Positions 37,634 through 60,916 of a DNA stretch of 64,000 nucleotides are shown here, one piece after another. The stretch's first letter is position 1. Each line of letters opens with the position of its first letter. The position numbers and the translations under genes are program-made. Source of the DNA: Dudresnaya verticillata (taxonomy: Eukaryota); NCBI GenBank assembly GCA_977862235.1, contig OZ374564.1, forward strand, positions 620,001 through 684,000. Reading direction: 5' to 3'. The notes beneath the pieces were generated by a model. That model was not told where the DNA came from, searched no databases, and saw only the letters and a program-made list of their open reading frames with translations.

Positions 37634-38479
37634 TGTGGTGCAAGGGGAGGGCTGCCCCTTTTTCGCTCTGAGCGTATTATATGCCAACGTCCACCGAAGG
37701 AACGTCCACCGCCGTTGGCGCGCGAACACGTCATCGACGATTGGCCCACGGGCATACGGCCGCCGTTACCCCGCGCGGCGCGGCGCACGCGCCCACTGTA
37801 CGGCCAGATCCGGATGCACGATCCCGATCGGCCGGGCGCAAGGCGCCCGCCTGTAAGCTTGGCCCGCATCCGGATCGGATCCGGATGGGGCATCGAGATC
37901 CGGCATCCGGATCCACAGTGATGTAAGGAGCGCGCCTGTAATGGCCGCGCGCCAGCAATGCTGGCAGGGATCTGGATCCGAATCCGGATCACCCGCAATG
38001 CTACGCGCATGCGCCTGTAAGCTACTCCTGAGCTCCCGCGCGCGCGGCTGCATGGCGACGACGACGTGTCAGACGCTCGACGACGTGACACGCGTCCTGA
38101 GTTCCCGCGCACCGCGCCTACCGCCGTCGCTCACGTAGTATATTAGGTAATCCGTCTGCGACGCTGAGTAAACCCCGGACAAGCCGGCCTTGGTCCAGAC
38201 TTCCCCGTTCCGCACGCGTGTACCCTACTGATGCCTACGGCTAAGCGTCTACCTCCCGTGCTTCCACGTCTCTACCCGTCCTTGACGTGCTTCCCTTTTG
38301 TTTCCTTTCTGATCTCTTTTCCCTTCCTTTCCGCATCGGGCGTCTACAGTCCGCCCAAGGCGTGTTCCTTTGCTCTACCAACAAGTCGCCCACGGCGGGA
38401 TCATCCAACGCCGAGGGCGCAGCTACCCACCGAGCCCCGAACTGCTCGGCGGTCCATCGTCTGTGACGTTTGCACCACA
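37634..38479 (+). repeat. Gypsy 3' LTR
   Basis: Direct repeat of 25071-25916 with few substitutions. Confidence 0.96.
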
Positions 38480-39334: not shown

Positions 39335-40030
39335 ATGGCGCTTTATGACGACGTCATCGATGTGAATGCCATTCTGGACACAGAAGAAGTCATGCCCGCG
39401 GAAAAAGTTACCGGAGTACCACTCGTCACGGGCGATACAGATGAAGAAACGTCGGGCAGTTGCCCTTCCTTGGCTTTATCCAGGGCAGCTCGGGGATCGC
39501 GAAAGGACGTCGCAGGACACGGTCCACTGCATTTGAATGAGTATGTATGGGAAGTAGAGAGTCTGAATGAGGCTATTCGGCGCGTGGGGAGAAGGAGGTT
39601 GTCGGAGCCATCGTTCTGGCTCATGAGCGGGGCTGTATTGTAGTGGGTATGAAGGAGCTGGATCTGCTCGATCGCAACCGTATCCGGTTCAGGGAGTTCT
39701 GCGATAGGGTGTAAGGAGGAATTGGGAAGAAAAAAGGCCTGCAAGAGTGTGTCGGAAAAGTACTTCACAGGGGAATTGAAGTTCTGGTACAGGAACAGGC
39801 ACTGGGACGATCAAAGGAGGAAGAAGAAGATGCTGACGGACCTTTGGAAATCGGCACACTGCGGGTGCATGGACGGCCCCAATGCTGAGGGCGGAGACTG
39901 ACGCTCGGCTAACATCATTCGGCGCCGCTACGGTTGCTGTGAGCAGAAGAAGGAACTGCTTAAACGTCTGGAACTCCTGAATCGGAGTTACGCAGACTGC
40001 CAGAAACTAAAGCGGATAGCGATGGATAGA
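39335..40030 (+). pseudogene. Unknown Cys-motif protein family 1, copy 2 (frameshift and stops)
   Basis: ESLNEAIRRVG...SEKYFTGELKFWYRNR...DLWKSAHCGCMDG...ANIIRRRYGCC. Confidence 0.75.
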
Positions 40031-40944
40031 AATGTCCGAGTGCACGGAGTAGGTACAAGATCCCCTGCAGGTCACTTCGTGCGAACTTAGAGAGCAGGGT
40101 GGAGGTGGGATGGCGGGAGGACTGTTACAGTAGTAAAGCGAAGACCTTCGGGATAATTTAATGTGCAATACAAAGACACCCACTGGGTCCCGGACCGAGT
40201 GCGGCGATATCCCTGGTACCCATGGGTACTGACAATGCCATTTGACAATGTGGTGGATACAGGATTGCGATTGGGAACAGGCGCGGGACTGGGAGACGGC
40301 GTAGGCCGAATGAGGCGAGTGCCGACGAATTGTGGATTGGGTGGCACATGCTTGTCGGTCGCGTTCGGCACTGGCAGTTCCTAGGCGCGACTCCGGAGTG
40401 GACTAGGGTAATTGCTTGGCACAGTACCTACGGCCCTGGGTGTGGCGGGGAAGCGTAGCAAATGCCCATCCTAACGGGAAATCGTCTAGTCGTGGCTTGG
40501 CGGAATCCAACAGGACAGCACCTGGGCACTGTACGCACGGCCCGGGATACGGTGCGCGAAAGACGAGTAAATTGTCTGCGGAAGCAGCGCACGAGGCCCT
40601 GGACGCGGTGCTCGAAAGCCGAGGAAATTGTGTGGGCGCAGCAGCGCACTTGGCCCTGGGGGCAGGGTTAGGGCGGCAGGAAAGTGCCTAGCGTAGTACT
40701 GACGGGCCTGGACGCGGGGCGTGAACAGCCCATGGGTACGGCATGGGTGCGGTTAGGACAGTGCCTGCGCGCTGCAGCGAGCGCCATGGGTGTGGTGCGC
40801 AAGTGAGGCTGGCAAGGGAAATGTGCGGGCGCAGAGCGCACGCGGCCCTGGGCGCGGCACGAGAGTGGGGCGGGCGTGGGCCAAGGCAATTTCTGGAAAG
40901 GATTCTGAGGAGGGGCAGGGGCGGCCCAGGGCCGGGCTGGGCGA

Positions 40945-41194
40945 ATGGGGAAATTCGGATTAAAATTGGTTGCAAAAATTATGAAAGTTGGAAAGTTTCG
41001 CGAACGTTTCAAAGAGTTTCGGCCGCACGGCGAAAAGCACGGAAACTGCTATAACTTTCGAAGGACACGTTCGTTTACAAAACGGTTTTCACCACTAAAC
41101 TCAGTCCACGCTCCACTGTCCAACGCAGTAAAGAAATATCTGTTCTGAAAAATTCTGTGAGGCACGAATACTTCTGCTACATCGGAAATCAGTG
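40945..41194 (+). repeat. Right-end TIR-like sequence of the putative DNA transposon family (diverged)
   Basis: GC-rich tract, then TTAAAATTG, GAAAGTTT blocks, CTATAACTTTC, AAACGGTTTTCACC, TAAAGAAA and a CGGAAATCAGTG|TTG terminus. Confidence 0.62.
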
Positions 41195-43430
41195 TTGCCC
41201 TTGGCGAGTGTCCGGTCGCGTTGCACCACAGTGCACAGGTGTGGTACCTGTGCCGATCCCGATCGGAGGATCACGCTCGGACTCGAGCGCGGCCCTGCTA
41301 CCTGCGTGGCGGCCAATGCTCCGTGATCCACGTGTCTATGGGTTGCACTCACGGCGGTTGAGGTACCCCGCGGTAGCGTGCGCCCGTGGACGTCGTCGAC
41401 TGCTGCGACCGAGCGAACGGCGTTTTCTCGCCAACGTTCAAAAGGGAGGGTCAGAACACCTCGGGGATACTGGCCCGTCGTAGACGGTATAACAGCGCCT
41501 TTGTAGAGTGAAGAAATTCTCTAAGAGTTTATTCCAGAGCTCAGCCGTACTGCTGAGCCCCAGTGGCTATCTTCTGTAGCTCAAGAGTTGTAGCGATACG
41601 CAAACTAAAACAATAAAACCCCACAAAGCGCCGTAAAAGAGAAGTAGACTTGATGAATGCAAGGGCGGGAGGGTGGGACAAAAGAAAATAGACTTGCCGA
41701 GGTGGCGAGGGGGACAAGACGACGACACCCAAATGTGCGAGGCCGGCGGCGGGTTGCGACGGCGGCGGCAGGGTTTGGACGCGTGTCAAGACCCTCTTGG
41801 TCACACGTGGCAGAGCACGTTATCTTCCAATCCGAGAGCCCTTCAGGTGTAAACACTTGTGTTCACATGTCTGATCAGAGATGGCCATAACATATTCAAC
41901 GTTTAATCCGTTTTGGTCGTCATTTTCCTCCCCACCGGTATCAGTCGCCGATTTATCTGAATACACATGCTCCACCACGCTTGCTACCGTCATGCATGCC
42001 TGGTCGGCGATTACGGTTAGTTTCTTTGGCTGTTTGCCAATTCTAAAATCCGATCCTTCTTTCAATATTCAGTTTGGAGTTTGATTTGAAAGCCCTAAAT
42101 CTCTGCCATCCTGGGCATATAACAGGAATTTTCAGTGCACACCACTCAATCACAGTATTCCCGCTGAGCCTTATAAGTCTGATCAATTGATACCTTCGCG
42201 TCCTGCCTTCGACAATGACGTATCATCTCTAAGCTGTGTACGTCTTCGCGTGGTTATTGGGCTTCCAGCGAGCCACAATTCTGCTTAGATGCACGTGTTG
42301 AGATCTGTAACAATGTTTTCTACACTACTTCTACGCGAAGAGAATAAAGAAAGGTTCATCAACATAAGAAGAATAGAGAACACACAGATGTGTTTACAAG
42401 CACTGGAAAAGACAGAAAAATAAATTACAGGGGATTTCAAAAGATACCAACGATTTCGAACATACTGTAGCAATTTCATCTCTGTTTAAAGTTAGAGTAG
42501 ACGGGCTGTAGTGCAATGAGAAGGGGCCACATCTGACTGACAGGAAAAAGGGAGTATGCAGGAATGAGCTACATTTTCTATTGAATTCTCAATCTCACAA
42601 GCTGATAATACAAACGGGTATGAAAAATACACCCGGTTAGTTTCAATTGGGGCCGCGGATAAATCTAAAGCAATTAGAGGGCAGAACCTTTTCCTAGCCC
42701 ATATGGCATGTTCCCTTTTGAAGCCAGTTGCGCGATCTATCTTGGTGGGCTGTGGGCGCAACATATTTTCCTTGGAAACTTGCGATACCTGTACCGGAAA
42801 AGTCTGACAGCTTTCGCTATTATCCTTCCACCTATAAAAAGGTCTGAGTATGATGTCTTTTTCGGAATTTGTAGCACCGAAGTCATTTTCATACTCCATT
42901 CTGATATTTAATGTACTGGAAATTATTTTCATCGCACAGTGCTTGCATACGAATATTTGCACTGGCCCGGCTGCGAGTTTAATTTCGTTACTGGGCTGTC
43001 ATGGATTGCGCATGCATTGCGGATAACTAGGACTGGCGGAATAGCAACAGTCCAAATGCAAGCAACTTTCGAAAGGTTTCGTTCGAGATGTACCTGCCGT
43101 TATCATTACGGATTGCCTCTTACCTGTCCCGAGGAAAGAGCCCTTTTGCCAGTAATTGAGGACTTGAAACACAATCCGATAGCGTTGACATTGACACTCC
43201 TGACTTGCGAACAGAACCCCGAAGTTGTCGCTTCCGCAACCCATACCGGTTGTGCCGCACTTGGCCTGAGATGAAGTCTACCATTGCAAGTAAATGGCGT
43301 AAATGTGTAGAAAAATGCGGTTCCCTCTTCCCCAGTACCCCATACTTCTAACGGGCCATGATGGATAGGCCCTTCCGCAATTCGTACGCCGGAAGAGGGA
43401 AAGCAGTTCGTATGAATGTAATAGAAGTAC

Positions 43431-45784: not shown

Positions 45785-46010
45785 AATGATTTCGTCCGCT
45801 TCAGAATTTCCCGTTTCAAATAGAATAATAAAAACGCATTCTCTTACATGCATTCGACACAGGAGAACGAGCAGGTAACAACGACGAAACGCGTTTGCTC
45901 TAAACTATGGGTGTTCCCACGTCATGGTCGTCCGCTCATCACTAACTGCGCCCTTGAAATGCCCCGAATTCCCTCTGATATTTTCCGAAATTATTTCTCA
46001 GAAATTGCTC
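45785..46010 (+). repeat. Degenerate left-end TIR-like sequence
   Basis: TTCAGAA...TTCTCTTA...AACAACGACGAAACGCGTTTG...TTTTCCGAA is colinear with 47396-47652. Confidence 0.4.
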
Positions 46011-47395
46011 CAGGCCCCACCGGGGATCCGCGGTCCAGACCCGACTTGCCGCGATTTCCCACTGGGCCCAGGCCCCCCTTAAACACTCTGAAGTCTGCAA
46101 CTCCCACCGCATGTCCCATCGGGTCACATCTTACCTGCGCTCAGTTCTTGCTGGCAGCTATGTAGCTGTTCTTGTACCTTTCTTTGGGTTCAGCAACCTC
46201 GAAGAAAGGGCCGGCTAAATTTGTATTGGAGATCGTGTTCTCTCACCGCGCAGAGCTGCAGTCACCATCACGAGCATTGTGTGTTAAGAGAAACGCAAGC
46301 TTCGCATATGGCGCCTGGAAAGAACTCTGACTGTTATCTGTTCTGTCTAAACGCGCGAGGAGGCATCTAGAACATTTGCCGGGTGTAGACCACAACGGGG
46401 CGACAAGCGCTGCGGAAATAACCCCAAAAAACCTGGTCATTGCAGAATATGGGTCTTTCCTGTGATTCTGTGCACAAAAGTATTCAGCGCGTCGGTGTGG
46501 ATGCCCTAATCACTGCGATGATTACAGCGGAAGAAGGGAATCATATTAGTAGTCCGGAAGAACTCGGATTTACCTTATAGAGCAAAACAATATTTCCCAG
46601 TTTCAAAAAGCAACTTGATGGTGCGGAAGAGCATCGCCAGTCCCTGATGCGTTCTCCCGCTGCAGCGTAGCCCGCCGCTACGAAATGATACCCTAAATCC
46701 TCAAGTGCAGTACTGAAGCTGGGAACGCCTCCAATTTCTTGAGGAAGTGGCCCGTTTCAAAAGCAGTAGAGCGACTGTAATCTGCCTTGATTGCTATATG
46801 TACAGGTAAAGCAAGTATTAACCGCTCGACTATGATGATTCTGCCAATTACCCACCAGAACCAACTCTGTAGTTAGCTGTGTAAACCTCCTTGGACGGTA
46901 GCTATCCGCCGTAATTCTGTTAAACGCAACCGGTGACCCGACGTCTCACCGAGTACTAATACGTATTCTCTTCTACCTAGTGTTTATGTTCCTGATACTG
47001 GATCCCCCAGTAAGCTGTCTTACATAATCCATCAGTTGTTGAGAAAACATTTCTTGTGCAGCTCCCATTAGTTGTCGCGACATTCGCCTACCTTTTCGCG
47101 CATGACTACGGATCCTGGTATTGAGCCCTGCTCATGCCCTCCCTTACTGGCGAATGGTGTAGTTTCACATTCACCCTCTTCAGCGGCACCTCCCCCTTCC
47201 GGCCTTGCCCTCTTTCCCACAGGCTCTTCGTGTTCATTCGTATTTTTATTCAATTCGCGTTTTGTTCCTTCAGGCATTTCTCTTGCCACTGCATCGTCGG
47301 CTATTTCTCATGTCTTCAGGCCTGTAGCGGTCGCCCTTTCACTGAATCCATCACCTTCAACTCCCCCGATATGACCATCAGTCTCGTTCGGTGAA

Positions 47396-47652
47396 CACTA
47401 CTCTCGAGAAATTCAGAAACAACTTTGCAAAACAGTATCAAATTGTACCCCGATTTCTTTAGCTCTATGGAACCATGAGCGTGCGCTGAGAACAACGGTG
47501 GAATCCGTTTGTCTATAGCGTAACTAGTTCAGAAGTTACGGCGCACTAAACACAGTCTGTACCCCCCAAACGTTTCCGAAAGTTTCACACTTTTCCGAAT
47601 TTCTGTAAAACATTTTTAATTAGATTTTCCCTCGCCCTGTGCGCCCCCAGGG
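47396..47652 (+). repeat. Left terminal inverted repeat
   Basis: Reverse complement of 60575-60852, with roughly 15 substitutions and a few indels by eye; starts CACTAC. Confidence 0.92.
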
Positions 47653-48309
47653 ACGCCAGCACACTCGCCGCATCACCGCTGTCGCCCCCGCCCGCCGCCC
47701 TTGCATCGCGCCGTCCATGCACCGCCCCGTCCCCGCACCACACCGCGCGCACCACGCCGCCCCTGCACTACGCCACGCACACCACGCCTCGCGAACTATT
47801 GTCGTCACCCTCGCTCGCCGCCCCTGCACAATGCCGCGCGCACCATTGCCGTCGCCCCTGCTCCCCTCCCCTGCCCAAAGTGCCAGCCCTTCGCGTATTC
47901 GCGCACCCGGCCTGCCCGCGTCGGCCCTGTACATGATGTCAGGTACCTGAAGGGCGTCCCTGCGCGGCGACCGTGCTTGCCGAACAGGCACTTGACGTCC
48001 TTGCTAGGCGTCCCTGCTCACTGCGCACGGTTGCTCTACCTGCATGTGTCAATCCTGCGCACAAGCACTGCAGTCAGGACATGCACTGACAGACTGTAAC
48101 AGTACCCTCGCTTCATCCCTCCTCAGTCCGCCTCGCGCAACTTCCCCTTCTCGCTGCCGTCCCACGTGGGTGTACACCCAAGACCCCGTAATTCACTCCC
48201 ACTCTGCTCTTGTGCTCACCTTCTGTCTCGAACCAGTGGTATCGCAATGCACACCGTCCGTCGCCATTGCACGCTGCTGCGAAAACGCCACCTTTATCGT
48301 ATCTAAACT

Positions 48310-48984
48310 TCACCTTCTGCAGTACTCGTACGGGATAGTCCCAATACCCTTGATGATTTCTCTCATCTTTGCTGCATGCCTGCAGCAATTGTATCGCCTG
48401 CGGATGATGTTTGCCAGCCTTGGTGGTTCGTTCTGTTCTCCATTCTTAACCTCATCCATGCAACCGCAGTGCGGATCGATCCACGTGTCGCAGAGTTTCA
48501 CTTTCTTACTGCGCCTCTTGAACTCCCGCCATTCCCGCCCGTTATACGAGAACTTGTATTCCCCCCTGAAGAATCGCTCTGAATATGACTGTGGTCCTGA
48601 CTGTGTTGATTCTGCCCCGTACACACGTTCGTAGAACTCTTTGAGATTACTTCTGTCGTAGAGGTGCACACCGAGGTCTGCAAGGCCGAGTACCTCCTTC
48701 TTCACCTCGATGGCACTGCTCACTTCTCGAACAATGACATACTCTCCGATTCGCTGCACAGCCTCCTCAAGTGTCTCCCCAGGCTGGCAGTGCTTGTGAA
48801 GGTCGAGAATATGCATTCTGCCCTTCCCTGACGTTGTAGATTCCTCTTTGTTAAATTCTGGTTCCTGACCTGCGCCTGTCCCCGAATCAGGACTCCCTGC
48901 TGAGTGTTCGGGGTCACTCTCTTCTTCATCACTGCTGATTTGTATCGCCTCGTCCACTTCGATGGCCTGTGTGATGTCGCCCAT
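48310..48984 (-). CDS. Unknown Cys-motif protein family 1, copy 3 (most intact)
   Basis: MGDITQAIEV...ETLEEAVQRIG...LGLADLGVHLYD...FYERVYG...WIDPHCGCMD...RLANIIRRRYNCC. Confidence 0.75.
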   Translation of the reverse strand: MGDITQAIEVDEAIQISSDEEESDPEHSAGSPDSGTGAGQEPEFNKEESTTSGKGRMHILDLHKHCQPGETLEEAVQRIGEYVIVREVSSAIEVKKEVLGLADLGVHLYDRSNLKEFYERVYGAESTQSGPQSYSERFFRGEYKFSYNGREWREFKRRSKKVKLCDTWIDPHCGCMDEVKNGEQNEPPRLANIIRRRYNCCRHAAKMREIIKGIGTIPYEYCRR

Positions 48985-49000
48985 CTCTAACGTGCGCCAA

Positions 49001-50032
49001 TGTTGAGGACATGGTCGCTGGCGCCTCACGTCACGGGTCAGGCACCCCAGATGGCACCCTGTCACGCTGTCACCAAACCTTCCGGAGACGACAGCCCTTT
49101 TTCCGGGCTTCCAAAATCACGGCGCATTTAGGCCTCTTGCAAAAGCAACGTGAAACGGGCTTCTGATTGGTTGTTACAAACCGCCTCCATGGTCTATATG
49201 GCTTACAAGTGTTGTGCTGGAATTGGCGGTTATAACAGGAACGGCCAAGTGGAACGATCTGATTGGACCACATGGATGCACGTGGTATGGCATGGAATGG
49301 TACTGGTATGACGCGCACTGTACTCCACAAGTACATGTGAACGTGCCATGCAATGTGCTGATGGCGTCTGAGTTGGTACTGCAGGGACTTGCGCTACGTG
49401 AGCCTGGCTTGTGATATCAGCAGATGCAGTTGTCGTGCGGCCGACACGTTGGTTTACAGTTGCCACGTCGCTGTCGTGCGGCCGACACGTTGGTTTACAG
49501 TCGGCACGTAGCTGTCGTGCGGCCGACACGTTGGTTTACAGCTGCCACGTAGGCAAATCTGGGTGATTACGTGGTCAATGATCCAAGTTGGATATTCATG
49601 GACGGACTTCAGCTCGTAAGTGCGGCCACGTGGTGTGCAGTGTTGTCCGACAGCAGCCATGCGGGGACACTCGATACTTTCGAGTTCCCGCCCAAAGTTG
49701 GAGTACATATTATTGGCAGGAAATGCGGTCGCAAGAGGGATTGCTGATGTCAGCAGTTAGCAACACTGGTGTGCAAGTTCCCGCCCATTTTGGTGGCGGA
49801 TGTGAGTGTGCTGAGAGTATGATTTGGTAGATTTGATTGCTTTACTTTTTCCCGCCCATTTGACGGTAGGGATTTTGGGCGTATCTTTAATGATTTGTTT
49901 TGTTTGTGTTCACGCAGCAACTCATCCGAAAAGCTGATATAAGCCTTGTCGGATGGTCGACTGCAGTAAACGAAGTCAAGCGACTTCCATTTCTCATCTT
50001 GTTCAACTCCAACCTCTCCATATTCCTTTTCA
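49001..50032 (+). mobile_element. Copia solo LTR with a perfect 5-bp TSD (GCCAA)
   Basis: Same LTR as 2553-3626; GCCAA at 48996-49000 and 50033-50037; three 41-bp units. Confidence 0.97.
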
Positions 50033-50795
50033 GCCAAGGTCACTTTCCTCGTGCTGGCCAGAACGCGACCAATTCGTGTGCTAGGGGCCTTCGACATGTG
50101 CCATCTTGTAAGATCTGGAGAGTTCGGAATGCCGTACAAGTCTCCCGCAGTAGACTGTAATTTCTTCGCGTATGTGGAAGCACAGTACTAAGGTGCAATA
50201 ACCGGGATGTGACACGGAAAGGGCGTGTCCACACTTTTCAGATTCCCATGACGTAGTTCACAGTTCTGAAACTGATGGACATACCGGCCTCTGTACAGTG
50301 CTATTACGGCAACAGGATCAACGAGTTTCTCAGTAGGAGCGTTTCTGCTCCCGGTCTGAAACATATGGGGGAAGGATTGAGTACGACGAGGGCATTACCA
50401 ATAATTCTGGTGTGACTTCATATGCATATGCGTTGGACACATTCCTACTGTGAGATATGCCGCGAGCTATATTTGCCTTGTAATGCCCGCGGGAATGCGC
50501 GCTTTTTCGACTCTGTACGGTCACTATGGTGCCTCTAGCTCTCCCTGTCCGGGCATAACTGAGTTGTAGAGACTGCACATACTCCTGTGCCCGCAGGCCC
50601 CGAAGACTGGTTTCCGGTACAGTAAAGTGGCTTCGTTGTCACTGCTAGAGTGGTTTTGAAGCAGTAACAGTGCAAAAAGGAGTTTGATCCAGCCGATATC
50701 TCCTACCCAGTTACTGCACTTTCCCTAAGTCCGAAGTCAAGCAGTTCATCACGATCATCTCTTTGCACTTGCGACAGACCACCTGCATGTGCGCC

Positions 50796-53599
50796 ATGGG
50801 CAGAAAGTCCAACAGAACGAAGAAGACGCCCGTGACAAATGACCGTAATGAAGTCGGCCTGCACCAGCAACAGATTCTGTTCGCTGATCTGCTTGACGGT
50901 TCCATGCTGAAGCGTGTCGATCCCCGGGCTTGTGTATCCCTCACCAAGGTCAGGACGATATCCAGGTCTGGAGTCAAACGGCTCAAGCCTATTTTCATCG
51001 GACTAGGAGGGGTACAAACCAGAGGATGCCACATGCTCCCGAGTCGATACGATATGTTGCAGGAAGCGATATGCCAGTGATTATCGAGCTCACGGGAGCC
51101 CTTCGCAAGCATGTGAGAGACTATTTTCGAAGTACTCGGAATAAGGAGGGAGCGTACCATACGGAGAAGAAGATAAAGGAAATCATCAGTTCGAGAGGAG
51201 TGTGGTACGGCGTCGTAGATGGCATGCACCGGATGGTTGCAATTATTGAGCCCATGGACATACACGACGAGATAGGGAAGACATTCTCGTGGCCGGTTAT
51301 GCATGTCAAGGGCGGGGCGTCTCTGCAGGTTCTAAAACAGTTTGCAAGACACCAGAACCGCAAACATCAGTCTGCTTGTTATGTAGAAACCACGTTCTTT
51401 GACACACTGAAAGGCCTGCGTGAAGAAGCCGACCGTCTGCAGGCTGAAGCCAATGGAAAAGAGCCGACAGCGAAAGCAGTGGCCGCGGCGTTTTATGGTG
51501 CTTCTCATCTTCACTAGAACACAATCAGGAAAACAGCCCAGGTTGTTCTTCGATTGCATAGATCGGTTCTAGATACTATCGGGGAGATTGCAACACAGGA
51601 GGATGCAGACTTGGCGGCCTCGACTTCCCTTGGAAGTGCAGGGGCTGGAATTTCCAGGCAGCTCGTAATGTCTTCGGTAGACTGCCGAGTCTATCGGGAT
51701 TTTATCCATATATCGTCACTGAAGTCTGCTACAGTTTTTATGAATGCCGGCCGGTCGCCAGACGGGGTAGAGGCTCAAATATGTACCTTGTACAGGCTGC
51801 GGGAAAGGGCCAGAATGCATAATTTCAGACCTGCACCGTACAAGGTCACAGTCGAGGAATTCGAGAGAGCAAGAGACGCGCTGGTAGAAGTTAGGAAGTT
51901 CGAGAGCCTGAGGGAATCCCCGAATTGGCCTTCAGCTATGTCCGTTCTGAGGACCAATATGTTGCACACGCGCAAACTGGACCTGGACGTTATGTCGAAT
52001 CGTGGAAACAATCACATACTGAAGTCGATTCTTACCATGTACCGAGACAGTTGCCCAGGGGAGGCTCCACAGAAAATAGAGAAATACAACCGCAGATTAG
52101 AAATTGCGCAGGCACGATTATCGTCTAGCACAGATCCAAAGCATCCTGAAGAAGAGAAGAGCCCTGACAGTCACATGAAACATGTGCCGTCTGGAGTGCT
52201 CTTGAACAAAACTGCTTCACAATGGGCCCCACAGACAGATATGGAGAAGGAGAACGACGACAACCGCAGTGATCCCGACCACCTGGGCTGCACTGCGAGA
52301 AGCTCAACTCCGGTTGAGTCCCTTCCTGTGATCAACGGGAATGAAGGAGACGCTGTCACACCTATCCCTTTGCCCTCAACGGCCACTACGATAAGATCGG
52401 AAAGATTGGATACTGTTAAGAAGCTCAAAAAGGATAATAGAGACGATGTTGCAACATCGGACGAGATACTGAAATCGGAAGACCTTGGGTGTCACCAAAT
52501 GCGCTGGGTGGACTACAACCAAAAATACAAGAAAAGTGAGAGCAACCTGTTTGACTGCATTCTGTCGGACACCCGTATGGCACCCCTGCCTCACAGTCTC
52601 GAGCTGGGAAAGGGTATGACAACCAGCTCAGCACTTCAGAAATGAACGAGTTGGCTGAGTTTTGCCGGCAGACAATCGCCCCGGGTGGTTGGGTGTTCCT
52701 GTTTGTGTCATTTCAGACCTTTGAGCCCATGAGGCAGGCACTTTCAAAGAATAGTTTCGACTGCCCAACGTATGCATTCGTGATTCTGAAGGATACCGGT
52801 ACTGTTCAGGAACCCAGGGGCAACGAAAGGCCGCAAAATGGCGCAGACATAGCTGTTTTTGGGAAAGCACCGGGTATACACCCATCCGGTTCAAAGGTAG
52901 ACTTGAAGAGCCCCTATCACTTATTGATATTGGGTATACACCCATCCGGTTCAAAGGTAGACTTGAAGAGCCCCTATCACTTATTGAAATGCCAGGAGAA
53001 AAGGAAGTTCGCATGCATGTCATCTGTTCCAGTCTCCAAAAAGAAACTGTTGAGACCTCAGACAAGATCCCCAGCAGGCCGAAGAAAAGAATGTTGACTT
53101 GCTCGCGGAAGTTCTGACGACGTTCTGTGCAGAGCAAGGGCATGTTCTGGATATGTACGCTGACACGATGACGACCGGCATACCCTGAACAGATGGAACC
53201 GTTGACCAAGCGGCAAAATGTCGAGACAGGAGCAGTGCCTGCTAAGGTCAGGGGATGGAATGAGAAACAGGAAGAAGGGGAAGATGTGACCCAACGCGGA
53301 GAAATCAGTGGAGGAGATCAAGTCACTCTCTTCATTGACAAGAAGGCTGTAGGAACTTGCAAGGTTCAGTTCGGGTGGACAGGGCGCGATTTCGGGATAG
53401 CATCCATGGTACTGCGTTATCCTCCTTTCAAAGAGAAGATCACCATCTTGTCGCAGTCTATCCATTCAAAACCGCGACGCAAAGCTCCCATTTGCGACAA
53501 CCGTACTCATACCGGGAGGTAGATGGTGAGATCCCGACAACATTGAGTGAGATCCAAAGCTTTTTTGCTTGTGGCGTCAATCAGATGGCATTGACATGA
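50796..53599 (+). pseudogene. ParB/Srx-like domain + beta-class N6A/N4C DNA methyltransferase fusion, copy 2 (frameshifted)
   Basis: VDPRAC..VRTISRSGVKRL, MPVII, VWYGVVDGMHRMVAI; FDCILSD-x-PYGTLP across compensating indels; PGGWVFLF; VLDMYADTMTTGI; 60-bp tandem duplication at 52872-52988. Confidence 0.8.
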
Positions 53600-54773
53600 A
53601 CTCACAGGACGAGCTTTTGATGGTCATCGTCGAATTGGGCGAGTTTCCTGAGATTAGCAGGCGACCGTTCGCAAGGACGCCTTACAATAAACTGATACCA
53701 GCCTGCTGGCGCTCTACAGACACAGATTCCTTCCGCACAGACGTCATCGCCCCTGCAGTGTTTCTCATAAGAACGGAATCGACCAGACTGCAACGTTTCG
53801 TTTGCGAGCCTGACAAATTCGGTCCGCGTTGCAGTCAAGAAGCTGGGAGGTAATGCATCGCCTGATGAGAAGGTGCATCTTGGGAATGCGCAACGAAGAG
53901 CGGTTAATGGTTGACGTAGCCGCGAGCTTCCAGGAAACGGCAGTGCGAAATCTGGAGCAGCGCGCGGGGGGCGCCCTGTAGATTTGCGCTGCACACAAGA
54001 CAGGGGCGCGCACGCTGGTTGTGTCGGGCAGCCGCCGGTGCGGCGGCCAACGCAGTGGTGAGAAGGTGGGTAATTGCGGCGTGCGAGCGGCACGGGTGTA
54101 CATGCGCCATCCCGTCCAACGAGCTGTGCACCGCGGTGCCGAAACGGGGGGATGGATGTGCGGGCGAGAAGGCCGCTCGCGGGGCTCCTCGCGCAGCAGG
54201 AACGAAAAAGCTCCGATAGCTATGTGCTGTCTCGTGCGGGAAAAGCCATTCCGTATTATTGATAATACGATGACAGTTCTGATTGCTTGGCAAAGGGGAA
54301 AAGGTTTCTGAAAGCTTCCCTTTCTGCGCTGCAAAGAGCAGCTGCTTCGTTGTCCCAGGGCCCGCAAGGAAAATATCTGTTGAAAAGCTTTACTTTCGTA
54401 TGAAATACGAAACCTTTTTAGATATTCCGGTTCTGGCCGTATCAATACCCAATCAGAAGTATTTGACAGATCATTTCCAGGAAAAGCTATGTTGCATTAT
54501 CCATACTACACCTACAGTTTCGCGGAGCTCGCCCTTTGCAAAACTTAAAGTTTCGTGTCGCGACCCGCTACTCCGCTCGTGTTTCTCCGACGGGCCGTCG
54601 CCTGGCCTCTACCTATTCTCCCCAGGCACCGTTGCTACCTCGGAGCACTTTGTTCACGGTCTGTGCCGCACTGTCCGCAATTCGGCCGATGGCGATGACA
54701 GTGGTGCTGAGAAATCACCGGTCGATCCGCGGTCGTCGGACCCGACACGAAGCCAGGCCCCGGAGAGCCTAAC

Positions 54774-56047
54774 TTGGGCGACGACAACCCGGTCACGTCA
54801 GACTATGTCGCCAAGCCAGATCCGCCTGCAGACGCCGCGCCTGCTGCGAACGGAATAGAGCCTGGGGCTGGCGGTGCTGATCCGCCCACAAACGCTACCC
54901 AGGCCGCGGCCCTGGAGCAGTTCGAGCAGATGCAAGTCGAGGAGGTTTCTGGTGCAGTCGGTATTAACACAACTGTTATCTTCAAGGGTGTTGCACTCAC
55001 GGGCAGCTTTGAGTCCAACTGGAAGAAGTCGGATATCGCGTCGCTTGGTGCCGAGGATAAAAAAGAGGGCTGGTATGCAGATAGCCCGTACACGGACCGG
55101 TTTTCATGCCGGTTTGCATACAGCGAGAATGTGACAGACGATTCCGTCACAGAACCGGTGGTGCGCGTTTCCGATGAGAGTAGTATTGCTCCGACTGTGG
55201 AGAAGTTTACCGACAATGTGGAGGAAACCATGGGGGCGTTCTTTGTGCCCTACACATGCTCCAGCACGACCTGTTCAACGAGGATGTACATACGACACAA
55301 CCGAAGCGCAAAGTTTGCGCTGTTTTTAACACTGGAAGTAGGCCCGATGCAGCAATCGATCGAGGTCAGCGTACAGATGAGCAAGCCGCAATGGAACCTA
55401 GACTTCTTGGACCCGTACCTCACGTCGGGCAACTATATGATGAAAGTGGCTCTGCCTAGCACCGTTGTAGGAAGGCGCATGTCGGCAGATGAGCCGACCA
55501 TTATCAGTGTCAACAGACGACAGTCGTCGCAGTCACTGCGAAGGTGGCAACTCGGCTTACGTTTTCCGTTGCACCTTGGCAGAATGTGATTGCGACGTGG
55601 AGGAAGACCTGTGGTGGATGCTATTCAACTTCCTTTCTAATCGGTACAACCGGAAAGGGCTCGTTTGATGATGTGCAAGCAGGAGAGCTTACTCCCAAGC
55701 ACAAGTTAACTGAATCAACTAAACTCGATAGCGCTCTCGGAAGGATAGAAGAAGTTGATGAGCGCACCGCATATAAGCGGTTTTATCTTACGAATAGCGA
55801 AGGCGACTCAGATATTCATATTCAGACTACTGCTACGACTGCAACCAAGCAAGATTTTGTTACTGCGTACGTTGAAGTACCGTTCAGTGGGTCACATTCC
55901 TACATCCAGGCAGGCGCTTCCACCATATCGAGACGTGAAACAAAATCCCTTCGGCTCTACTTCATCTGCAAACAGTTTGGCGCTTCCTGGGTATTGGTCA
56001 CTATCCTGATCGTTATGTACAATAATTATCATCAAGCACTGCGTTGA
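54774..56047 (+). pseudogene. Hypothetical protein in two overlapping frames, unknown function
   Basis: Long ORFs of 271 and 167 aa with protein-like composition; no motif recognised. Confidence 0.4.
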
Positions 56048-56702
56048 ACCGAAGGTCTACCACCATTCCAGTTTCACGCAAACAGCAGGGTCTATCATGT
56101 GGACTGTCATGCTTCTGGCTGCAGCAAGTGCAGTCGGGTCAGGGATTTATATGCGCCGACGAAGCGGCATCAAATATGCACCAGTACGGACAAACTACAG
56201 GGCCCCATAGACTTCATGGTTCTCAGTTGCAAACAAGGTCGTAGTTTTTACTTTGGTGCGTCGCAGTTGACCCGTACAGCCCTTCATGGCCCCTACCATG
56301 GATTCATTCCCGGCTCACTCCTGGTCGTCTATCAGGTGAGTGACTGCGACAAGATTGGTGGCGATGAACTTGCAGCCAGGTTACTCGTTAACGCATAGCT
56401 GCGCGTACCGAATCTTGTAGTAATTGATGAAGCGGTCAAAGCCAAAAAATACTGGCTGCTCTGTCACCCGTTCTTCAGGCTGTCGACGCCGTCGACCGCA
56501 GGCGCCTCGCCGCTGCGCTGTTCGAACTATCATGATTTGCGCGGGCAAGCCATAAAATGGCTGCCACAGACCACTCCCGCTCTTGGGAGCCAATATCAGA
56601 ATGACCTACCGTCTGTCTGAAGCCCTGCTGGATACTTGCGGACCAACGCTACAACTCAATGGTGTGGTCTTTATTGGGAAATTACTCAATGCAGGTATGC
56701 AA

Positions 56703-58735
56703 TCATTGCGCACTAGTTTTGGTGAAGACTCTCGCCTTGGCAGGTCCATCGCGAATCTCCTCACATTCTGCGCACTTCGTAAAGCGACTTACTTTTCGTA
56801 CCCTAATGTGGGAACAGTGTGCCTTCCACGTAGCGTAAAAGTAGCTCGCGCGTGCAGGTGTCTCGCCACTATACAAAAGGCCCTGGTCTGTTGTGAATTG
56901 CTCGTACAAAGTCTTCCTGTCAAAGTATGGCAGATGTATTTCGGCTCTGTCCGGCATATGGTCTGCAGTAGCTTCAGCAATCCTCTCGAGGTACGAAACG
57001 ATTCTGTCCCGTTGTTCAGAATTTGCGTCTCGCGGAGTGGAATCGGAGAGGGACAACGAACCGCCAAACTCCTTGACAGACGTTTGCAAGTCCCTTGAAA
57101 ACCCAAATGCTTTCTCTAAGAAATTGTAGCACACCAGAGCACCATTGACCGGTAAAACCTGTCAGGCTGGATCAGGCGGAATAGATAGTCCCTCCTTTCG
57201 TTCTTTTCCATCATCAGAACACGACGAGCTTCGGCCTTGAGTTAAACCTGCTCACAGGCCTGGAAACATTTCTTTGCAGAACAGCACTTCTTGCGCTCCC
57301 AGTCCTCCGTGTCTATCCTCGCTAGTGCAGCCTTACGCCTTATCATCAAGTCAGTCTCGCCCTTCTTGGGCCTCTTACTAACACGTGAACGATAACGATA
57401 AATTCGCTTCTTAACGGCACCAATTCCCCTCATACCGTTTCCTCTACGTTCCTCAGAACCAACACGAGCAGCCGCTCCTCCACTATCTGCGTCCTCCTCA
57501 TCTTGGTAATCCGGGTCAGAGAGCATTTCTGTTCCATCTGCCACCTCTTCAGCAGTTGCTGCCAATTCATCAGCAGGTTCTGTCTGTGCGCCACCCCGAG
57601 TGACAAGGTCGACAGTGGATTCCGAACCCTCACCTTCTTCGCGACGGTCTTTCCCCTCGCTTTCTTCCTCCACCGCCCCCTCGACGTCATCGTCCTCAGC
57701 TTCCTGTTCTGCTCCTGCTATCTGGTCTGCATCCTGGCCTGGCCCTGCTTCATGGTCTGGCCCTAGTTCTCCTAAGTTCCCTGGTTCCGCTTCGGCCATA
57801 ACGTTGTCATCTTCAGTGATCCCCTTCTTCTCGTTTTGAATAATGCGGTTTGCTGGCTTTTGAGGGCGTGGTCGTAACGGGGGGCTTTTCACCGGGGTGT
57901 ACTGCAGGGGAGATTCCATATCTCTATCGTCTTCAAGCACAATGCCACACCTTTCCCCGGGTGACATGAATGGGTCCGGATCCTGCACGACTGTCTCCCG
58001 ACCACCGGCATCTGCTGCTACAGGCGTGCGAAGAGGGGTGTTAGGAGGTCTTGGGCTGCGAATGGTGCCCTTACCTTGGCCCGGTGTATGCAGAGTACCG
58101 GAATCAGGGCATTCCTCTCGGTCCCTTTCAAGTAGCATTGCCTCTCCAGGGTTCATCTCTGGCCCAGACTCCATCGCCTCCTTCAGATACACAGCCACCA
58201 TATCCTCGAACTGGTACAGATCCCAACAGTGCTCACCTTTACCAATTTTTTGTAGCATCTTGGGAACCGCCCTGTCAGATAAGTACTGAAATGAGTTGGG
58301 TAGGCGCTCTGCTCCGGGTAGACAGTGCACTCGGTGGATCGCTACCCATACCCCCCCGGGGCGTTGCTGCTTACTGAGAGAATGGCCGCCAAGGACTGTG
58401 CACAAACGACCGCTTGGGTCCTCCGTCCCGGGCGGTGGCAGCAAGGGAGTGGCACGAGCCACATGCTGTCCTCCGAGAGTTAGCGAGACGCGCGAATCCG
58501 GCTTGACATGGGGTTGAGTAATACTTACCTCCGTAGATGTGGGGCGACCTGAGGCTTCTTCCATAGCGTCAAAACGCGGCAATAGGGGCTGGTCCGGCGA
58601 TGCCTGGGAGGGAGGGAAATCAGGAGAGCTCGGAGGCCACTGCGAGGGTAAAGGTGCATTGCAGGCACCGATCGCTTGTGGAAATATCTTAAATAGGTGA
58701 GGTTTGCGAGTACCGGAAAGATCGCAGTGCTCCAA
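56703..58735 (-). pseudogene. N-terminal half of the DUF7869/Sola-like transposase gene, copy 2 (catalytic core absent)
   Basis: LQYTP, RIYRYRSR, D..DW...KCC..KKCF, ADHMPD.AEIHLP, ASYFYATWK..IRVRK..RFTKCAEC match the 16177-18536 fragments; likely ATG at 58564. Confidence 0.72.
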
Positions 58736-58973
58736 TTACTGGGTCAGGAACGAACAACTCCAGAGTAGAGATACGTGGGATTGCATTCTGTGCATATTCT
58801 GTCGTGCGTGCAGAACCGCCTTCCAGAACAACTGGTATCGTGAAAAATCATTCATACACACGCGACGTGAGGCGCCAATGACAGGTGCCGTAGAGGATAG
58901 GAGGAGCACCCTGGGCACGAGTACTCGTGAGGGTATACCCTGGTGTGTAGGTCCCGCTTGCCAGTCGAGGTCC

Positions 58974-59363
58974 ATGTTGTTCCGCTCGGTTCTGCTTACG
59001 GGTGGTGACAATGCGGTGGGGGTACGGGCACATCAAGGACAAGAGGAGGATACAAAGACGCTAACAATTTTGAAGAACGTGAACGAGCTTCTTCCAAAGC
59101 AGTACAGTGCAGCTGCGGTGAAAAAGGGTACTCTGGCTCCAAGTATGGACGCGGTTGAGTTTATGAATGAGCGTGTCACGGATATGGCTAGAGAGCACGG
59201 AAACATTACCAACGCGATTACTCCACAGAATCTCGGAGCGAAGATTGCCGTGCAAACGTTTGGAGACAGTCGCTTGAACAGCACCTGGAAGGAGCTCCTT
59301 TCCAAGCGGGGCCGCGAGGTGTACATGCGTCCATGTGAAACATATGCAGATATTGCAGAATAG
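58974..59363 (+). pseudogene. Fragment resembling the C-terminal RCK-like region of CASTOR/POLLUX/DMI1-type cation channels
   Basis: FRSVLL...DTKTLTIL...VEFMNERV...AITPQNLGAKIAVQ...RLNSTWKELLSKRGREVYMRPCETY follows the family pattern as I recall it. Confidence 0.55.
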
Positions 59364-60139
59364 AACTAATCGTTTGCAGCTCTTGCAGACACGCTCGCAA
59401 AGACCACAGATGACTTAGTCATTTGATACGTTCGTCACGACGGATGAGTCATTATCAAACCATAAGGGCCGGAGAGGTTGACGTCTCGCGAAGGGGATAA
59501 ACTGCATGTACTTGTTGTATTGTGGAATGAGTAGTTCGAGGCCACGGCAAAGCACCAAAAACATACGTACGTACTTACACAAACACATCGAATGACACAT
59601 ACGCCACTCGCGAGCACGTGCACGGGCACATGCACATCACCACTTGGGAATACAAAGATCGCCCATGCCCGATGTTGTTTCCCAGTTAGCAATCTACTGA
59701 AGGGCCATTTCGAGCGATGTCTCTCGACTCGTTTTATTCATAAGTAAGCTGTGTAATGACGTCAACAGTACTGTTTTGAAGAACATACCATACCGTTGTA
59801 TCCAAGCCGGCTGTGCTGGCATCCAGCATCTCACGAACCGGCCCTGCATGGGCAACGGAGCGGTATCCCAAACGTTTGCGACAAGTCAATGGCCCATGGC
59901 ACAGAAATGCTTGTACTAGGCTAGCACTGTCTCCATCCGCCCCGTTGTTTACTTCGCACCTTCAAAGTCCAGAAACAGAATGCCAAACTTGTTCCACATC
60001 ACACAGTCCACAAGTCCTCCTCATCCGGTCTAGGCCATTAGTTACCGCTGCGGCTTGGGAGTCGCGTCGTGTAAACTATAAGAATTTCACTGCAGCATTC
60101 ATCCGCTGGGGCGTCTGATCGAGGACTTGATCACTAGGA

Positions 60140-60545
60140 GCAAGCATCAGCAGCAATCAAGCGGGCGATCATTAGCGGCGGTCAGACGGGCGGCAACTAG
60201 ACGGGAGAGCAGTAGCGGCGGGCAGACGCGCGGTAGACATTCGCGGCGAGCAGATGAGCAGCAGGAGAGGCGAGGAGGAGTAGCAGCAGATGCGCGGTAG
60301 ACAGTCGCGGCGAGCAGGCACAGCGAGCAGGCGGGCGACCAGTAGTAGCAGCAGACGCGCGGCTGACAGGCGCGGCGAGAAGGCACAGAGAGCAGGCGGG
60401 CGACCAGTAGTAGTAGCAGACGCTCGGCTGACAGGCGCGGACAGCAGATGAGTAGCGAGCAGGCGGGCGTGCAGGAGCGGCGGGCATGGGCGGCGAGCAG
60501 GGACGCTGGGCACGGGTGGCGTACAGGAGCGGCGGGCAGGGGCGA
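60140..60545 (+). repeat. GC-rich subterminal degenerate tandem repeats (~65-bp units with AGCAG/AGTAG runs)
   Basis: GAGCAGGCGGGCGACCAGTAGTAG..GCAGACGC.CGGCTGACAGGCGCGG repeated at ~60325 and ~60390, plus looser copies. Confidence 0.75.
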
Positions 60546-60574
60546 CAGCAGTGGTGCGGGGAGTACGTTGGTGG

Positions 60575-60852
60575 CCCTGGGGCGCACAGAGCGAGGGAAA
60601 AATCTAATTAAAATTGTTTTACAGAAATTCGGAAAAGTGTGAAACTTTCGGAAAAGTGTGAAACTTTTGGAAACGTTTGGGGGGTGTACAGACTGTGTTT
60701 CGTGCGCCGTAACTTCTGAACTACCTACGCTATAGACAGACGGATTCCACCGTTGTTCTCAGCGCACGCTCCTGGTTCCATAGAGCTAAAGAAACCGGGG
60801 GACAATTTGGTACTGTTTGGCAAAGTTGATTCTGAATATCTCGAAAGTAGTG
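60575..60852 (-). repeat. Right terminal inverted repeat
   Basis: Inverse of 47396-47652; contains a 19-bp tandem duplication CGGAAAAGTGTGAAACTTT; ends GTAGTG. Confidence 0.92.
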
Positions 60853-60916
60853 TTGTTGGTGAATGAACTGTTGAAAAGCTCGTTTTGCTTCATTGAATAG
60901 TTGTCTGGTTCTGGTA

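What the first reader, a model, noticed from the sequence alone, without database searches (positions are those of the whole stretch)
47396..60852. Candidate undescribed large DNA-transposon family: CAC-ended long TIRs + DUF7869/Sola-like transposase + ParB-DNA methyltransferase cargo
Seen: ~260-bp inverted repeats enclose a recurring gene set (family-1 Cys protein pointing toward the TIR, ParB-MTase pointing away, transposase-like gene). The same set recurs in a diverged copy at ~15611-41194 once the Gypsy insertions are removed, with the same TIR / family-1 / ParB-MTase arrangement. A third end with family-1 and family-2 genes lies at 9869-15610. Known: CACTA ends normally go with a Tnp2 transposase, of which I see no trace here. 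Inference: a multi-gene mobile element that carries its own DNA-modifying enzyme. All copies here are decayed, and the transposase orientation differs between copies, so the boundaries are provisional.
Basis: partly seen in the sequence, partly recalled or inferred. Interest (0 to 1): 0.9.

Follow-up and report, generated by a model that had tools for sequence, protein, structure and literature searches.

The report
Sola1 transposon carrying ParB-methyltransferase gene
These are broken copies of a large jumping gene of the Sola1 type, likely from a red seaweed, that carries a bacterial-style protein predicted to bind and methylate the element's own DNA; the same design was described in a brown alga in 2025, so this is a new branch with extra parts rather than a new kind.

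Summary
47394-60854 is bounded by ~260-300-bp inverted repeats (93% alike). It holds a Cys-rich gene, a ParB-fold + beta-class amino-methyltransferase gene and a truncated DUF7869-family transposase. Two more ends (15612, 41196) and a second gene set are real but only 54-59% alike in the ends: sister families, not copies. Corrections: the termini are most likely AACAC...GTGTT with a probable 4-bp duplication (GGTG/GTTG), so the CACTA look is accidental, and the transposase is Sola1. The design is published: Sola1-1_Ec32 of Ectocarpus (AACCG termini, 282-bp TIR, 4-bp TSD, ParB + N4C/N6A methyltransferase). This scan also noted it before in animal and plant DNA. Not found in my ten paper searches: a widespread intronless lineage (190 methyltransferase clusters; 7 of 14 testable ones lie on a contig of the same length as a related transposase), an intact DPPY motif in the nearest relatives, two further conserved genes, an inverted-motif array behind the methyltransferase gene, and a ~100-aa beta-barrel shared by methyltransferase and transposase. 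Likely mechanism: cut-and-paste with self-targeted adenine methylation; untested. All copies here are dead. No host genome was available.

The parts
47394..60854 (.). Element A: decayed Sola1-type DNA transposon, 13,461 bp (12,424 bp without the solo LTR)
47394..47698 (+). Left TIR of A, begins AACAC; holds 2 GAAA[CG]TTT sites ~190 bp in
60529..60854 (-). Right TIR of A, ends GTGTT; 3 GAAA[CG]TTT sites, 19-bp duplication
47390..47393 (+). Probable 4-bp target duplication GGTG (partner GTTG at 60855-60858; 3 of 4 match); a 5-bp reading TCGGT/TTGGT with termini one base further out is not excluded
48313..49000 (-). Family-1 Cys-rich gene (HCGCM...C-C motif), points to the left TIR; no family match; 5' part cut by a solo LTR
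49001..50032 (+). Solo LTR of the Copia at 2553-9868, duplication GCCAA; later insertion
50802..53596 (+). ParB-fold + beta-class amino-methyltransferase gene with C-terminal shared barrel; several frameshifts, stops and a 60-bp tandem duplication
53558..54488 (.). Loose cluster of 5 AAAAGCT motifs at and behind the methyltransferase gene's end (0.12 expected)
54711..56398 (+). Unassigned reading frames found only in A; no Pfam, NCBIfam or PHROG match
56718..58510 (-). Sola1 (DUF7869-family) transposase, N-terminal half only: shared barrel, acidic linker, Cys-rich region; catalytic core absent
59055..59528 (+). Possible captured host fragment, weakly CASTOR/POLLUX-like (below significance)
   Evidence: PF06241 E 0.22; DMI1 E 0.44
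60222..60551 (+). GC-rich 65-bp tandem repeats inside the right TIR boundary
15613..18321 (-). Element B transposase with DUF7869 core (DNC..NxN, GHTH.D.DQ kept); frameshifted; 3' end cut by the end of element D
19945..20297 (.). Array of about 13 (C)TGTAAAAGCTAT-like motifs in both orientations; all 8 TAAAAGCT of the window lie here
20690..23635 (-). Element B ParB-methyltransferase gene; motif IV reads DSSY; 2 frameshifts and 5 stops in the profile-matched part
24386..24781 (+). Family-2 gene of B; unknown
25070..38479 (+). Chromodomain Gypsy inserted in B/C; not part of the element
39514..39985 (+). Family-1 gene of B/C, points to the TIR
40890..41196 (-). TIR of B/C, ends GTGTT, flank GCCC
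9870..15612 (.). Element D, right part: family 1 (9870-10316 +), family 2 (11276-11677 +), TIR ending GTGTT at 15612 with flank GCTC; inserted into B's transposase; cut on the left by a Copia LTR
45787..45992 (+).
   Evidence: (nhmmer E 1.7e-4)

Best explanation
This is a decayed Sola1 cut-and-paste transposon, likely of a red seaweed, whose second large gene encodes a ParB-fold domain fused to a beta-class methyltransferase that is predicted to load at the element's own inverted-motif array and likely methylates adenines of the element to keep it expressed or tell it from host DNA. Shown: TIRs, gene set, Sola1 motifs, domain folds (on relatives), purifying selection on all four genes, motif clusters. 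Inferred: the DDD transposase binds the GAAA[CG]TTT sites in both TIRs, excises the element and leaves a 4-bp duplication (about 85%); the ParB domain recognises the AAAAGCT array (about 45%); the DPPY enzyme of this lineage made N6-methyladenine rather than N4-methylcytosine (about 70% if active); the barrel shared by both proteins brings them to the same DNA or chromatin mark or to each other (about 35%). Confidence that it is a Sola1 element with this gene as a long-term part is about 0.9; the figure below is for the whole mechanism.
For: Sola1: the published Sola1 profile reads D-n-c-x-x-x-N-k-n ... g-H-s with 35 positions from D to G (PMC5751038 supplement); the spacing is 35 in copy B and in 113 of 121 relatives; D683 and D807 are in 121 of 121, D765 in 119 of 121; Sola2 motifs differ. 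Ends: AAC start, ~280-bp imperfect TIR and 4-bp TSD as in Sola1-1_Ec32; D's end interrupts B's transposase where a 4-bp GAGC site would keep the expected Glu-Leu codons. Methyltransferase: profile hits DpnA-type, CcrM, RsrI; model of relative P0011 (pLDDT 80.5) matches CcrM Z 24.3, rmsd 2.8, 223 aligned, and the ParB-like PadC Z 9.7, rmsd 2.8, 97 aligned. DPPY in 12 of the 13 best hits, the 13th not spanning the motif. Linkage elsewhere: 7 of 14 methyltransferase clusters with a contig of 6 kb or more have exactly the contig length and source of a listed transposase; 600 shifted controls reach at most 2. A and B are sisters in both gene trees and sit near the P0007/P0161 pair. Codon position identities 0.53-0.63 / 0.62-0.72 / 0.32-0.40 for all four genes. 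Motifs: 12 of 13 GAAA[CG]TTT lie in the four TIRs; 8 of 8 TAAAAGCT lie in 340 bp behind B's methyltransferase gene; 5 AAAAGCT at the same place in A against 0.12 expected.
Against: No activity, binding or methylation data. Neither copy here keeps DPPY (B reads DSSY, A is frameshifted there), and only 31 of 107 relatives spanning the motif have DPPY or DPPF, so catalysis is dispensable in much of the family. The duplication has a mismatch; 3 of 4 arises by chance about 5% of the time and 90 terminus/length options were scanned. Contig-length matching is indirect: 7 of 14 clusters did not match, and 1 of 13 short-contig clusters matched though too short to hold both genes. Distances of the 7 pairs correlate only weakly (Mantel rho 0.50, p 0.073). 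The ParB fold cannot be told from sulfiredoxin by fold alone (Z 7.9). A's motif cluster is weak under B's weight matrix (2 sites at 9.9-12.7 bits). The transposase rows of A and B fill 25% and 38% of tree columns. The host is inferred only from intronless genes and composition.
Confidence: 0.6

Rival explanations
1. Same Sola1 element, but the accessory protein works as a DNA-binding or sliding scaffold (like CACTA TnpA or VANC): the ParB clamp and the shared barrel bring the two distant ends or the transposase together, and methyl transfer is incidental.
For: Motif IV is lost in most of the wider family (31 of 107 keep DPPY/DPPF), including a supported 17-protein clade, while several of those still share a contig length with a transposase (P0044, P0067). 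The barrel is on both proteins (33 of 162 methyltransferases, 9 of 121 transposases). Recalled, from no call: the barrel's pattern resembles the C-terminal domain of CACTA TnpA.
Against: The lineage of the window's copies keeps DPPY and the SAM-binding motif over ~40% identity, which a dead domain would not. No Pfam match of the barrel to TnpA families at E up to 10.
Confidence: 0.27
2. The methyltransferase restrains the element (self-limiting copy number by blocking transposase binding or its promoter) rather than protecting it.
For: Bacterial Dam represses Tn10 and Tn5 transposition by methylating ends and promoters (recalled). In B the array lies upstream of the transposase gene on its strand.
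Against: In A the array is not upstream of the transposase. No data on direction of effect.
Confidence: 0.08
3. The TIRs belong to a CACTA/Plavaka-type or Pack-type shell that picked up unrelated genes, including a piece of a Sola transposase, as passive cargo.
For: A's ends contain CACTA; gene order and orientation differ among A, B/C and D; A holds a possible host fragment; large red-algal EnSpm/Plavaka elements with accessory genes are known.
Against: The other two ends read CACTG and CACAG and all four extend to AACAC; no 2- or 3-bp duplication at CAC (0 of 2, 0 of 3); no Tnp2/Plavaka domain among 72 ORFs scanned; all four genes show purifying selection; the two large genes travel together elsewhere.
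Confidence: 0.05

Closest known systems
Sola1-1_Ec32 of Ectocarpus (PMC12477816; passages and one supplementary table row read; its FASTA files not readable)
   Same: Sola1 transposase; second gene with ParB-like domain and N4C/N6A methyltransferase (1104 aa there, ~850-1050 aa in relatives here); opposite strand to the transposase as in A; imperfect TIR of ~280 bp; termini begin AAC; 4-bp TSD; giant size with nested insertions.
   Different: Termini AACAC versus AACCG; about 12.4 kb versus 21.5 kb; genes here show no introns; families 1 and 2, the motif array and the shared barrel are not mentioned in the passages read; flanks here begin with G, the Ectocarpus TSD tends to end in A. Sequence identity untested.
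Red-algal Plavaka (EnSpm) elements with PAG1-3, Bostrychia (bioRxiv 10.1101/2025.02.11.637652; section 8 and passages read; supplements closed)
   Same: Giant DNA transposons with several accessory genes, a PF01555 methylase, a ParB-like domain and arrays of inverted repeats next to the ParB gene; accessory genes move between superfamilies.
   Different: There the methylase is fused to SET (PAG2) and ParB to a 2OG oxygenase (PAG3), with a Plavaka transposase; here ParB and methylase are one protein and the transposase is Sola1. 'Sola' does not occur in the main text; supplementary table 6 was not seen and may list such elements. Whether family 1 or 2 is PAG1 could not be tested.
Bacterial and phage beta-class amino-methyltransferases (CcrM, M1.HpyAVI/DpnA type, M.RsrI) and phage ParB-methyltransferase loci (Iyer 2016, PMC4738411, passages read)
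   Same: Permuted fold, DPPY motif before the SAM-binding motif; best PHROG is phrog_67 (E 2.5e-32).
   Different: Only 17-24% identity over the catalytic domain; the 44 metagenome and viral loci fetched hold no match to the N-terminal half or the barrel. The eukaryotic ParB-HTH + Dam fusion in that review is a group-2 enzyme, not this group-1 type.
VANDAL/VANC and En/Spm TnpA anti-silencing proteins (VANDAL as cited; TnpA recalled)
   Same: Accessory protein that would bind the element's own motif arrays and change its methylation state.
   Different: Those remove cytosine methylation and have no methyltransferase or ParB fold; different superfamilies.

Membership tests
Sola1 | Transposase core with Sola1 motifs (D...DNCxxxNKN...GH[ST]...D) | tested here: met
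   By-eye comparison with positions 82-124 of the published 124-position Sola1 profile; 35-residue spacing in copy B and 113 of 121 relatives. The profile itself was not run.
Sola1 | Three invariant acidic residues (DDD) | tested here: met
   D683 121/121, D765 119/121, D805 and D807 121/121 in P0002 numbering; which of 805/807 is catalytic is not resolved.
Sola1 | 4-bp target site duplication | tested here: inconclusive
   GGTG/GTTG, 3 of 4; a 5-bp 4 of 5 reading competes. One pair of ends only.
Sola1 | Terminal inverted repeats; termini like the known Sola1 with this gene (AACCG) | tested here: met
   AACAC on 4 of 4 ends, ~260-300 bp.
Sola1 | Tree placement among Repbase Sola1 transposases | not testable with these tools
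   No Repbase or Dfam library held; Ectocarpus FASTA unreadable.
Sola2 | Sola2 motifs (DFKEN, D..xHFK, HGKS.xD), short TIRs, AWWT TSD | tested here: not met
   Sola2 proteins and features read in PMC3627910 text and supplement passages differ from the invariant motifs.
CACTA/EnSpm (incl. Plavaka) | CACTA/G terminus with 2-3-bp TSD | tested here: not met
   At CAC the flanks match 0 of 2 and 0 of 3; one end reads CACAG; all extend to AACAC.
CACTA/EnSpm (incl. Plavaka) | Tnp2 or Plavaka transposase | tested here: not met
   The transposase present is DUF7869/Sola1; no Tnp2 or Plavaka Pfam match among 72 ORFs. Short decayed remains outside those ORFs are not excluded.
Beta-class amino-methyltransferase | Permuted fold, motif IV (DPPY) before motif I | tested here: met
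   on relatives; window copies carry the domain but a broken motif IV.
Beta-class amino-methyltransferase | Methyl transfer to adenine N6 or cytosine N4 of DNA | not testable with these tools
   Needs an assay or long-read modification data.
ParB/Srx superfamily | ParB/Srx fold with GxxR motif | tested here: met
   PadC Z 9.7, rmsd 2.8, 97 aligned; ParB 5k5d Z 8.3, rmsd 4.4, 212 aligned; DGMHR in copy A; G112 invariant in 43 of 43; DGxHR in about 21 of 52 long relatives. No Pfam ParB match.
ParB CTPase clamps | CTP binding, parS loading and sliding | not testable with these tools
   Only a candidate motif array.
CACTA TnpA-type C-terminal domain (for the shared barrel) | Match to Transposase_23/DUF8039-type profiles or a solved relative | tested here: inconclusive
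   No Pfam match at E up to 10 in 12 proteins; best structural Z 4.4, tied among SH3-like barrels.

The most novel reading that the evidence does not exclude
A eukaryotic transposon lineage runs a bacterial-style ParB-parS system on itself: a CTP-switched clamp loads at a private inverted-motif array, slides along the element and writes N6-methyladenine, while an unnamed barrel domain shared by the methyltransferase and the transposase couples the mark to transposition (both read the same mark, or dock on each other). It would be a self-marking, element-confined methylation system in a seaweed genome, with intact DPPY members available for testing.
Probability: 0.2. Interest if true: 0.82.

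Novelty: new variant of a known kind. Interest (0 to 1): 0.45.

Why it matters
Two 2025 papers propose that algal transposons carry ParB-like and methylase proteins that modify their own DNA, but in the passages read neither tests it. This lineage offers what a test needs: intronless ~900-aa genes, an intact DPPY motif in the nearest relatives, a sharply defined candidate binding array, and many diverged families for comparison. If true it would be an anti-silencing route by adding a mark, a source of adenine methylation in seaweed genomes, and a possible tool for region-confined DNA methylation. The barrel shared by two proteins of one element points to a coupling step that my searches did not find in print.

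Tried and rejected
No host genome is held, so copy number, intact copies and empty sites could not be examined. Sequencing runs: none was listed; no evidence either way. Word-indexed protein search with B's methyltransferase against longer proteins found nothing although the full HMMER search found 190. Locus searches: 10 metagenome and 34 viral loci matched only the catalytic domain at 22-41% and none holds the N-terminal half, barrel, families 1/2 or a TIR; viral contigs gave no transposase or family-1 relative; two prokaryotic-bin contigs carry a distant transposase without the methyltransferase. Families 1 and 2 and the frames at 54711-56398 have no Pfam, NCBIfam or PHROG match above curated cut-offs; no homologue search was left for them. 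No solved relative of the transposase by profile; it was not folded, so the RNase H fold rests on the Sola1 assignment. The barrel has no significant structural match; this does not show a new fold. Atlas look-ups did not complete, and the complex prediction for the two barrel domains was not available, so nothing is known about binding. A longer TIR reaching ~15 bp beyond AACAC was considered and rejected: at D that stretch is transposase coding sequence. A CACTA reading and 8-11-bp (Mutator-like) duplications were rejected or left unsupported (best 7 of 11). Bao 2009, Yuan and Wessler 2011 and the journal version of the Bostrychia paper were not held under the ids tried. 'DUF7869' occurs in 0 papers.

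Full report
1. What is in the sequence. A self-comparison of the window finds one long inverted pair around the finding, 47394-47698 and 60529-60854; 239 of 256 aligned bases are identical. Two further ends, stopping at 41196 and 15612, align with them over about 260 bases at 54-59%, and a profile of the four finds a fifth, older remnant at 45787-45992 (E 1.7e-4). All four clear ends read AACAC from outside; after CAC they differ (CACTA twice, CACTG, CACAG). With AACAC...GTGTT as termini the flanks of element A are GGTG and GTTG (3 of 4); one base further out they are TCGGT and TTGGT (4 of 5) with a mismatched first base; at CAC there is no 2- or 3-bp duplication. Such matches arise by chance 5% and 2% of the time and 90 options were scanned, so the duplication alone is weak. 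It gains from element D, whose end interrupts B's transposase right after a GAGC that would begin the Glu-Leu seen in relatives, and from the G that follows GTGTT at all three right ends.

2. Genes. Translated comparison shows the same three genes in A and in B/C, family 1 also in D, and family 2 in B/C and D. Of 72 ORFs scanned, 15531-15926(-) hits DUF7869 (E 1.4e-23) and 20690-21856(-) hits N6_N4_Mtase (E 3.2e-7). Full-length relatives map the genes: the methyltransferase gene spans about 50802-53596(+) and 20690-23635(-); the transposase about 56718-58510(-), lacking the catalytic half, and 15613-18321(-), lacking the 3' end. All are broken by frameshifts and stops. Later insertions are a solo LTR in A (duplication GCCAA), a chromodomain Gypsy in B/C (GTAAG/GCAAG) and a Copia at D. 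Without them A is 12,424 bp and the surviving part of B/C 12,169 bp. Between elements, codon positions 1, 2 and 3 are 53-63%, 62-72% and 32-40% identical for all four genes and fourfold sites are near saturation (73 of 99 differ in the methyltransferase gene). So these are separate families whose four genes were kept under selection, and they died later.

3. The transposase is Sola1. A search with A's fragment gave 3 relatives; the core of the 1132-aa P0002 gave 131, of which 120 are listed, all DUF7869. In 121 aligned proteins D683, D805 and D807 are invariant and D765 is in 119. Positions 82-124 of the published Sola1 profile (PMC5751038 supplement, two parts read) give D-n-c-a-g-q-N-k-n and g-H-s with 35 positions from D to G; copy B and 113 of 121 relatives have the same spacing, 1 has 36 and 7 did not match the pattern. 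Sola2 proteins have other motifs. This is a motif comparison by eye, not a profile search or a tree with Repbase entries.

4. The accessory protein. A full search with B's fragment found 190 representatives at E up to 0.001, 150 listed, many of 850-1050 aa; none of the 27 clusters looked up carries a name. A profile of 43 hits bacterial beta-class enzymes. The model of relative P0011 (pLDDT 80.5) matches CcrM (Z 24.3, rmsd 2.8, 223 aligned) in residues 555-811 and ParB/Srx proteins in the N-terminus (PadC Z 9.7, rmsd 2.8, 97 aligned; ParB 5k5d Z 8.3; sulfiredoxin Z 7.9). DPPY is present in 12 of the 13 best hits and in the three proteins nearest to A and B in the tree (the 44 listed hits of 780 aa or more plus A and B), but in only 26, plus 5 DPPF, of 107 relatives that span the motif out of 162 examined. 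The window's own copies read DSSY (B) or are frameshifted there (A); that their ancestors had DPPY is inferred.

5. Do the genes travel together elsewhere? No host genome or run was available, and fetched loci were uninformative. An indirect test used the contig lengths that the protein tables list. Of 27 methyltransferase clusters looked up (of 150 listed hits), 14 have a contig of 6 kb or more; 7 of these have exactly the length and source of a contig bearing one of the 120 listed transposases. In 600 shifted controls 512 gave 0 matches, 85 gave 1 and 3 gave 2. One of the 13 short-contig clusters also matched though the contig is too short for both genes, which shows the chance rate is not nil. 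A and B are sisters in both gene trees, next to P0007 in one and in the group holding its contig partner P0161 in the other (fast method, partial transposase rows, the 54-row transposase tree uses 52 of 121 relatives). Among the 7 pairs, distances correlate only weakly (rho 0.50, p 0.073), so strict co-divergence is not shown.

6. (a) A ~100-aa domain sits at the C-terminus of the methyltransferase and at the N-terminus of the transposase: 33 of 162 and 9 of 121 stored proteins, both genes of A, B's methyltransferase and, more weakly, B's transposase (E 1e-4). Many stored proteins are incomplete, so these counts are lower bounds. It folds with high confidence as a small beta-barrel; the best structural matches are SH3-like barrels (KOW, Tudor, CAP-Gly, PWWP, BAH) at Z 4.4 or less, too low to name, and Pfam has no match. 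(b) 12 of 13 GAAA[CG]TTT sites of the window lie inside the four TIRs. (c) All 8 TAAAAGCT of the window lie in 19955-20287, in both orientations, behind B's methyltransferase gene; A has 5 AAAAGCT at the matching place against 0.12 expected, though only 2 score under B's matrix.

7. Mechanism. Most likely a cut-and-paste Sola1 element: the DDD transposase binds the subterminal sites and leaves a 4-bp duplication (inferred from family and motif position). The accessory protein is predicted to load at the array through its ParB part and to methylate adenines in the element, keeping it expressed or marked as self (inferred; DPPY favours N6-adenine, N4-cytosine is possible). The main rival is a binding scaffold without catalysis, which the loss of DPPY in much of the family supports. 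The direction of any effect is unknown.

8. Known systems. [quoted passage not shown] Red-algal Plavaka elements carry a methylase-SET gene and a ParB-oxygenase gene with inverted-repeat arrays (bioRxiv 10.1101/2025.02.11.637652; section 8 and passages). Giant multi-ORF En/Spm elements of Chondrus are noted in PMC6431247 (passages). Other papers seen: PMC4738411, PMC4455052, PMC3627910, PMC5751038, PMC3713064 and bioRxiv 10.1101/2021.09.26.461848 (passages; for PMC3627910 and PMC5751038 also supplement parts). My ten searches found no report of a red-algal Sola1 element with this fusion, of the shared barrel, or of the term DUF7869; Repbase reports, subscription journals, the Ectocarpus FASTA files and the Bostrychia supplements were not seen and may hold it. 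Earlier notes of this scan describe the same design in animal and plant DNA; they are unchecked except where stated.

9. Host. An intronless 475-aa nitrate transporter (43555-44982; TIGR00886), intronless element genes and about 52% GC fit a red seaweed, whose genes are mostly single-exon (PMC3713064). This is an inference; no call names the organism.

10. Verdict. A real, dead, multi-gene Sola1 transposon lineage of a design published in 2025, with extra conserved genes, an intact catalytic motif in its nearest relatives and a shared domain that I did not find in print. New variant of a known kind; interest 0.45.

Noticed in passing
window 43555-44982 (+): Intact-looking, intronless 475-aa NarK/NRT2-family nitrate transporter, the only clear host gene seen, sitting between the B/C end and element A (TIGR00886 E 2e-85); exact sequence not in the protein collection.
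   Followed up: partly
window 59055-59528 (+): Broken frame just inside A's right end with weak likeness to CASTOR/POLLUX/DMI1 channel gating domains (E 0.22 and 0.44); possible captured host fragment.
   Followed up: partly
window 45787-45992 (+): Old TIR-like remnant of the same group 1.4 kb left of element A; three related elements nest or cluster within 52 kb, and D sits inside B's transposase, which suggests insertion near relatives.
   Followed up: partly
window 48996-50037 and 8885-9873: The same Copia LTR family interrupts the family-1 gene in two different elements (A and D), at different positions.
   Followed up: no
window 2344-3627 / 8676-9869 and 1-451: Copia with about 200 bp of internal 3' sequence in front of its left LTR (tandem or nested arrangement), an inverted LTR piece at 1-451 and a RVT_1 frame at 897-2450(-) between them.
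   Followed up: no
window 25070-38479: 13.4-kb chromodomain Gypsy with 99% identical LTRs and a long unassigned region (33113-37600) after the integrase, with minus-strand frames of 200-300 aa and no Pfam match.
   Followed up: no
window 61175-64000: Relatives of the same Gypsy LTR piled head to head (inverted copy 61747-62600, direct copy from 62600, older copy from 61180), next to a Copia integrase-region fragment at 60918-61176.
   Followed up: no
P0253, P0158 (C-termini): Weak BAH-like matches at the C-terminus of related transposases (E 0.04 and 0.14), a possible second chromatin-reading barrel.
   Followed up: no
L045 1583-2677; L046 1420-3141: Distant DUF7869-type transposase sequence on short contigs in two bacterial bins; likely eukaryotic carry-over, not checked.
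   Followed up: partly
window 11700-15300: Interior of element D holds several frames of 120-240 aa with no match in Pfam or elsewhere in the window.
   Followed up: partly
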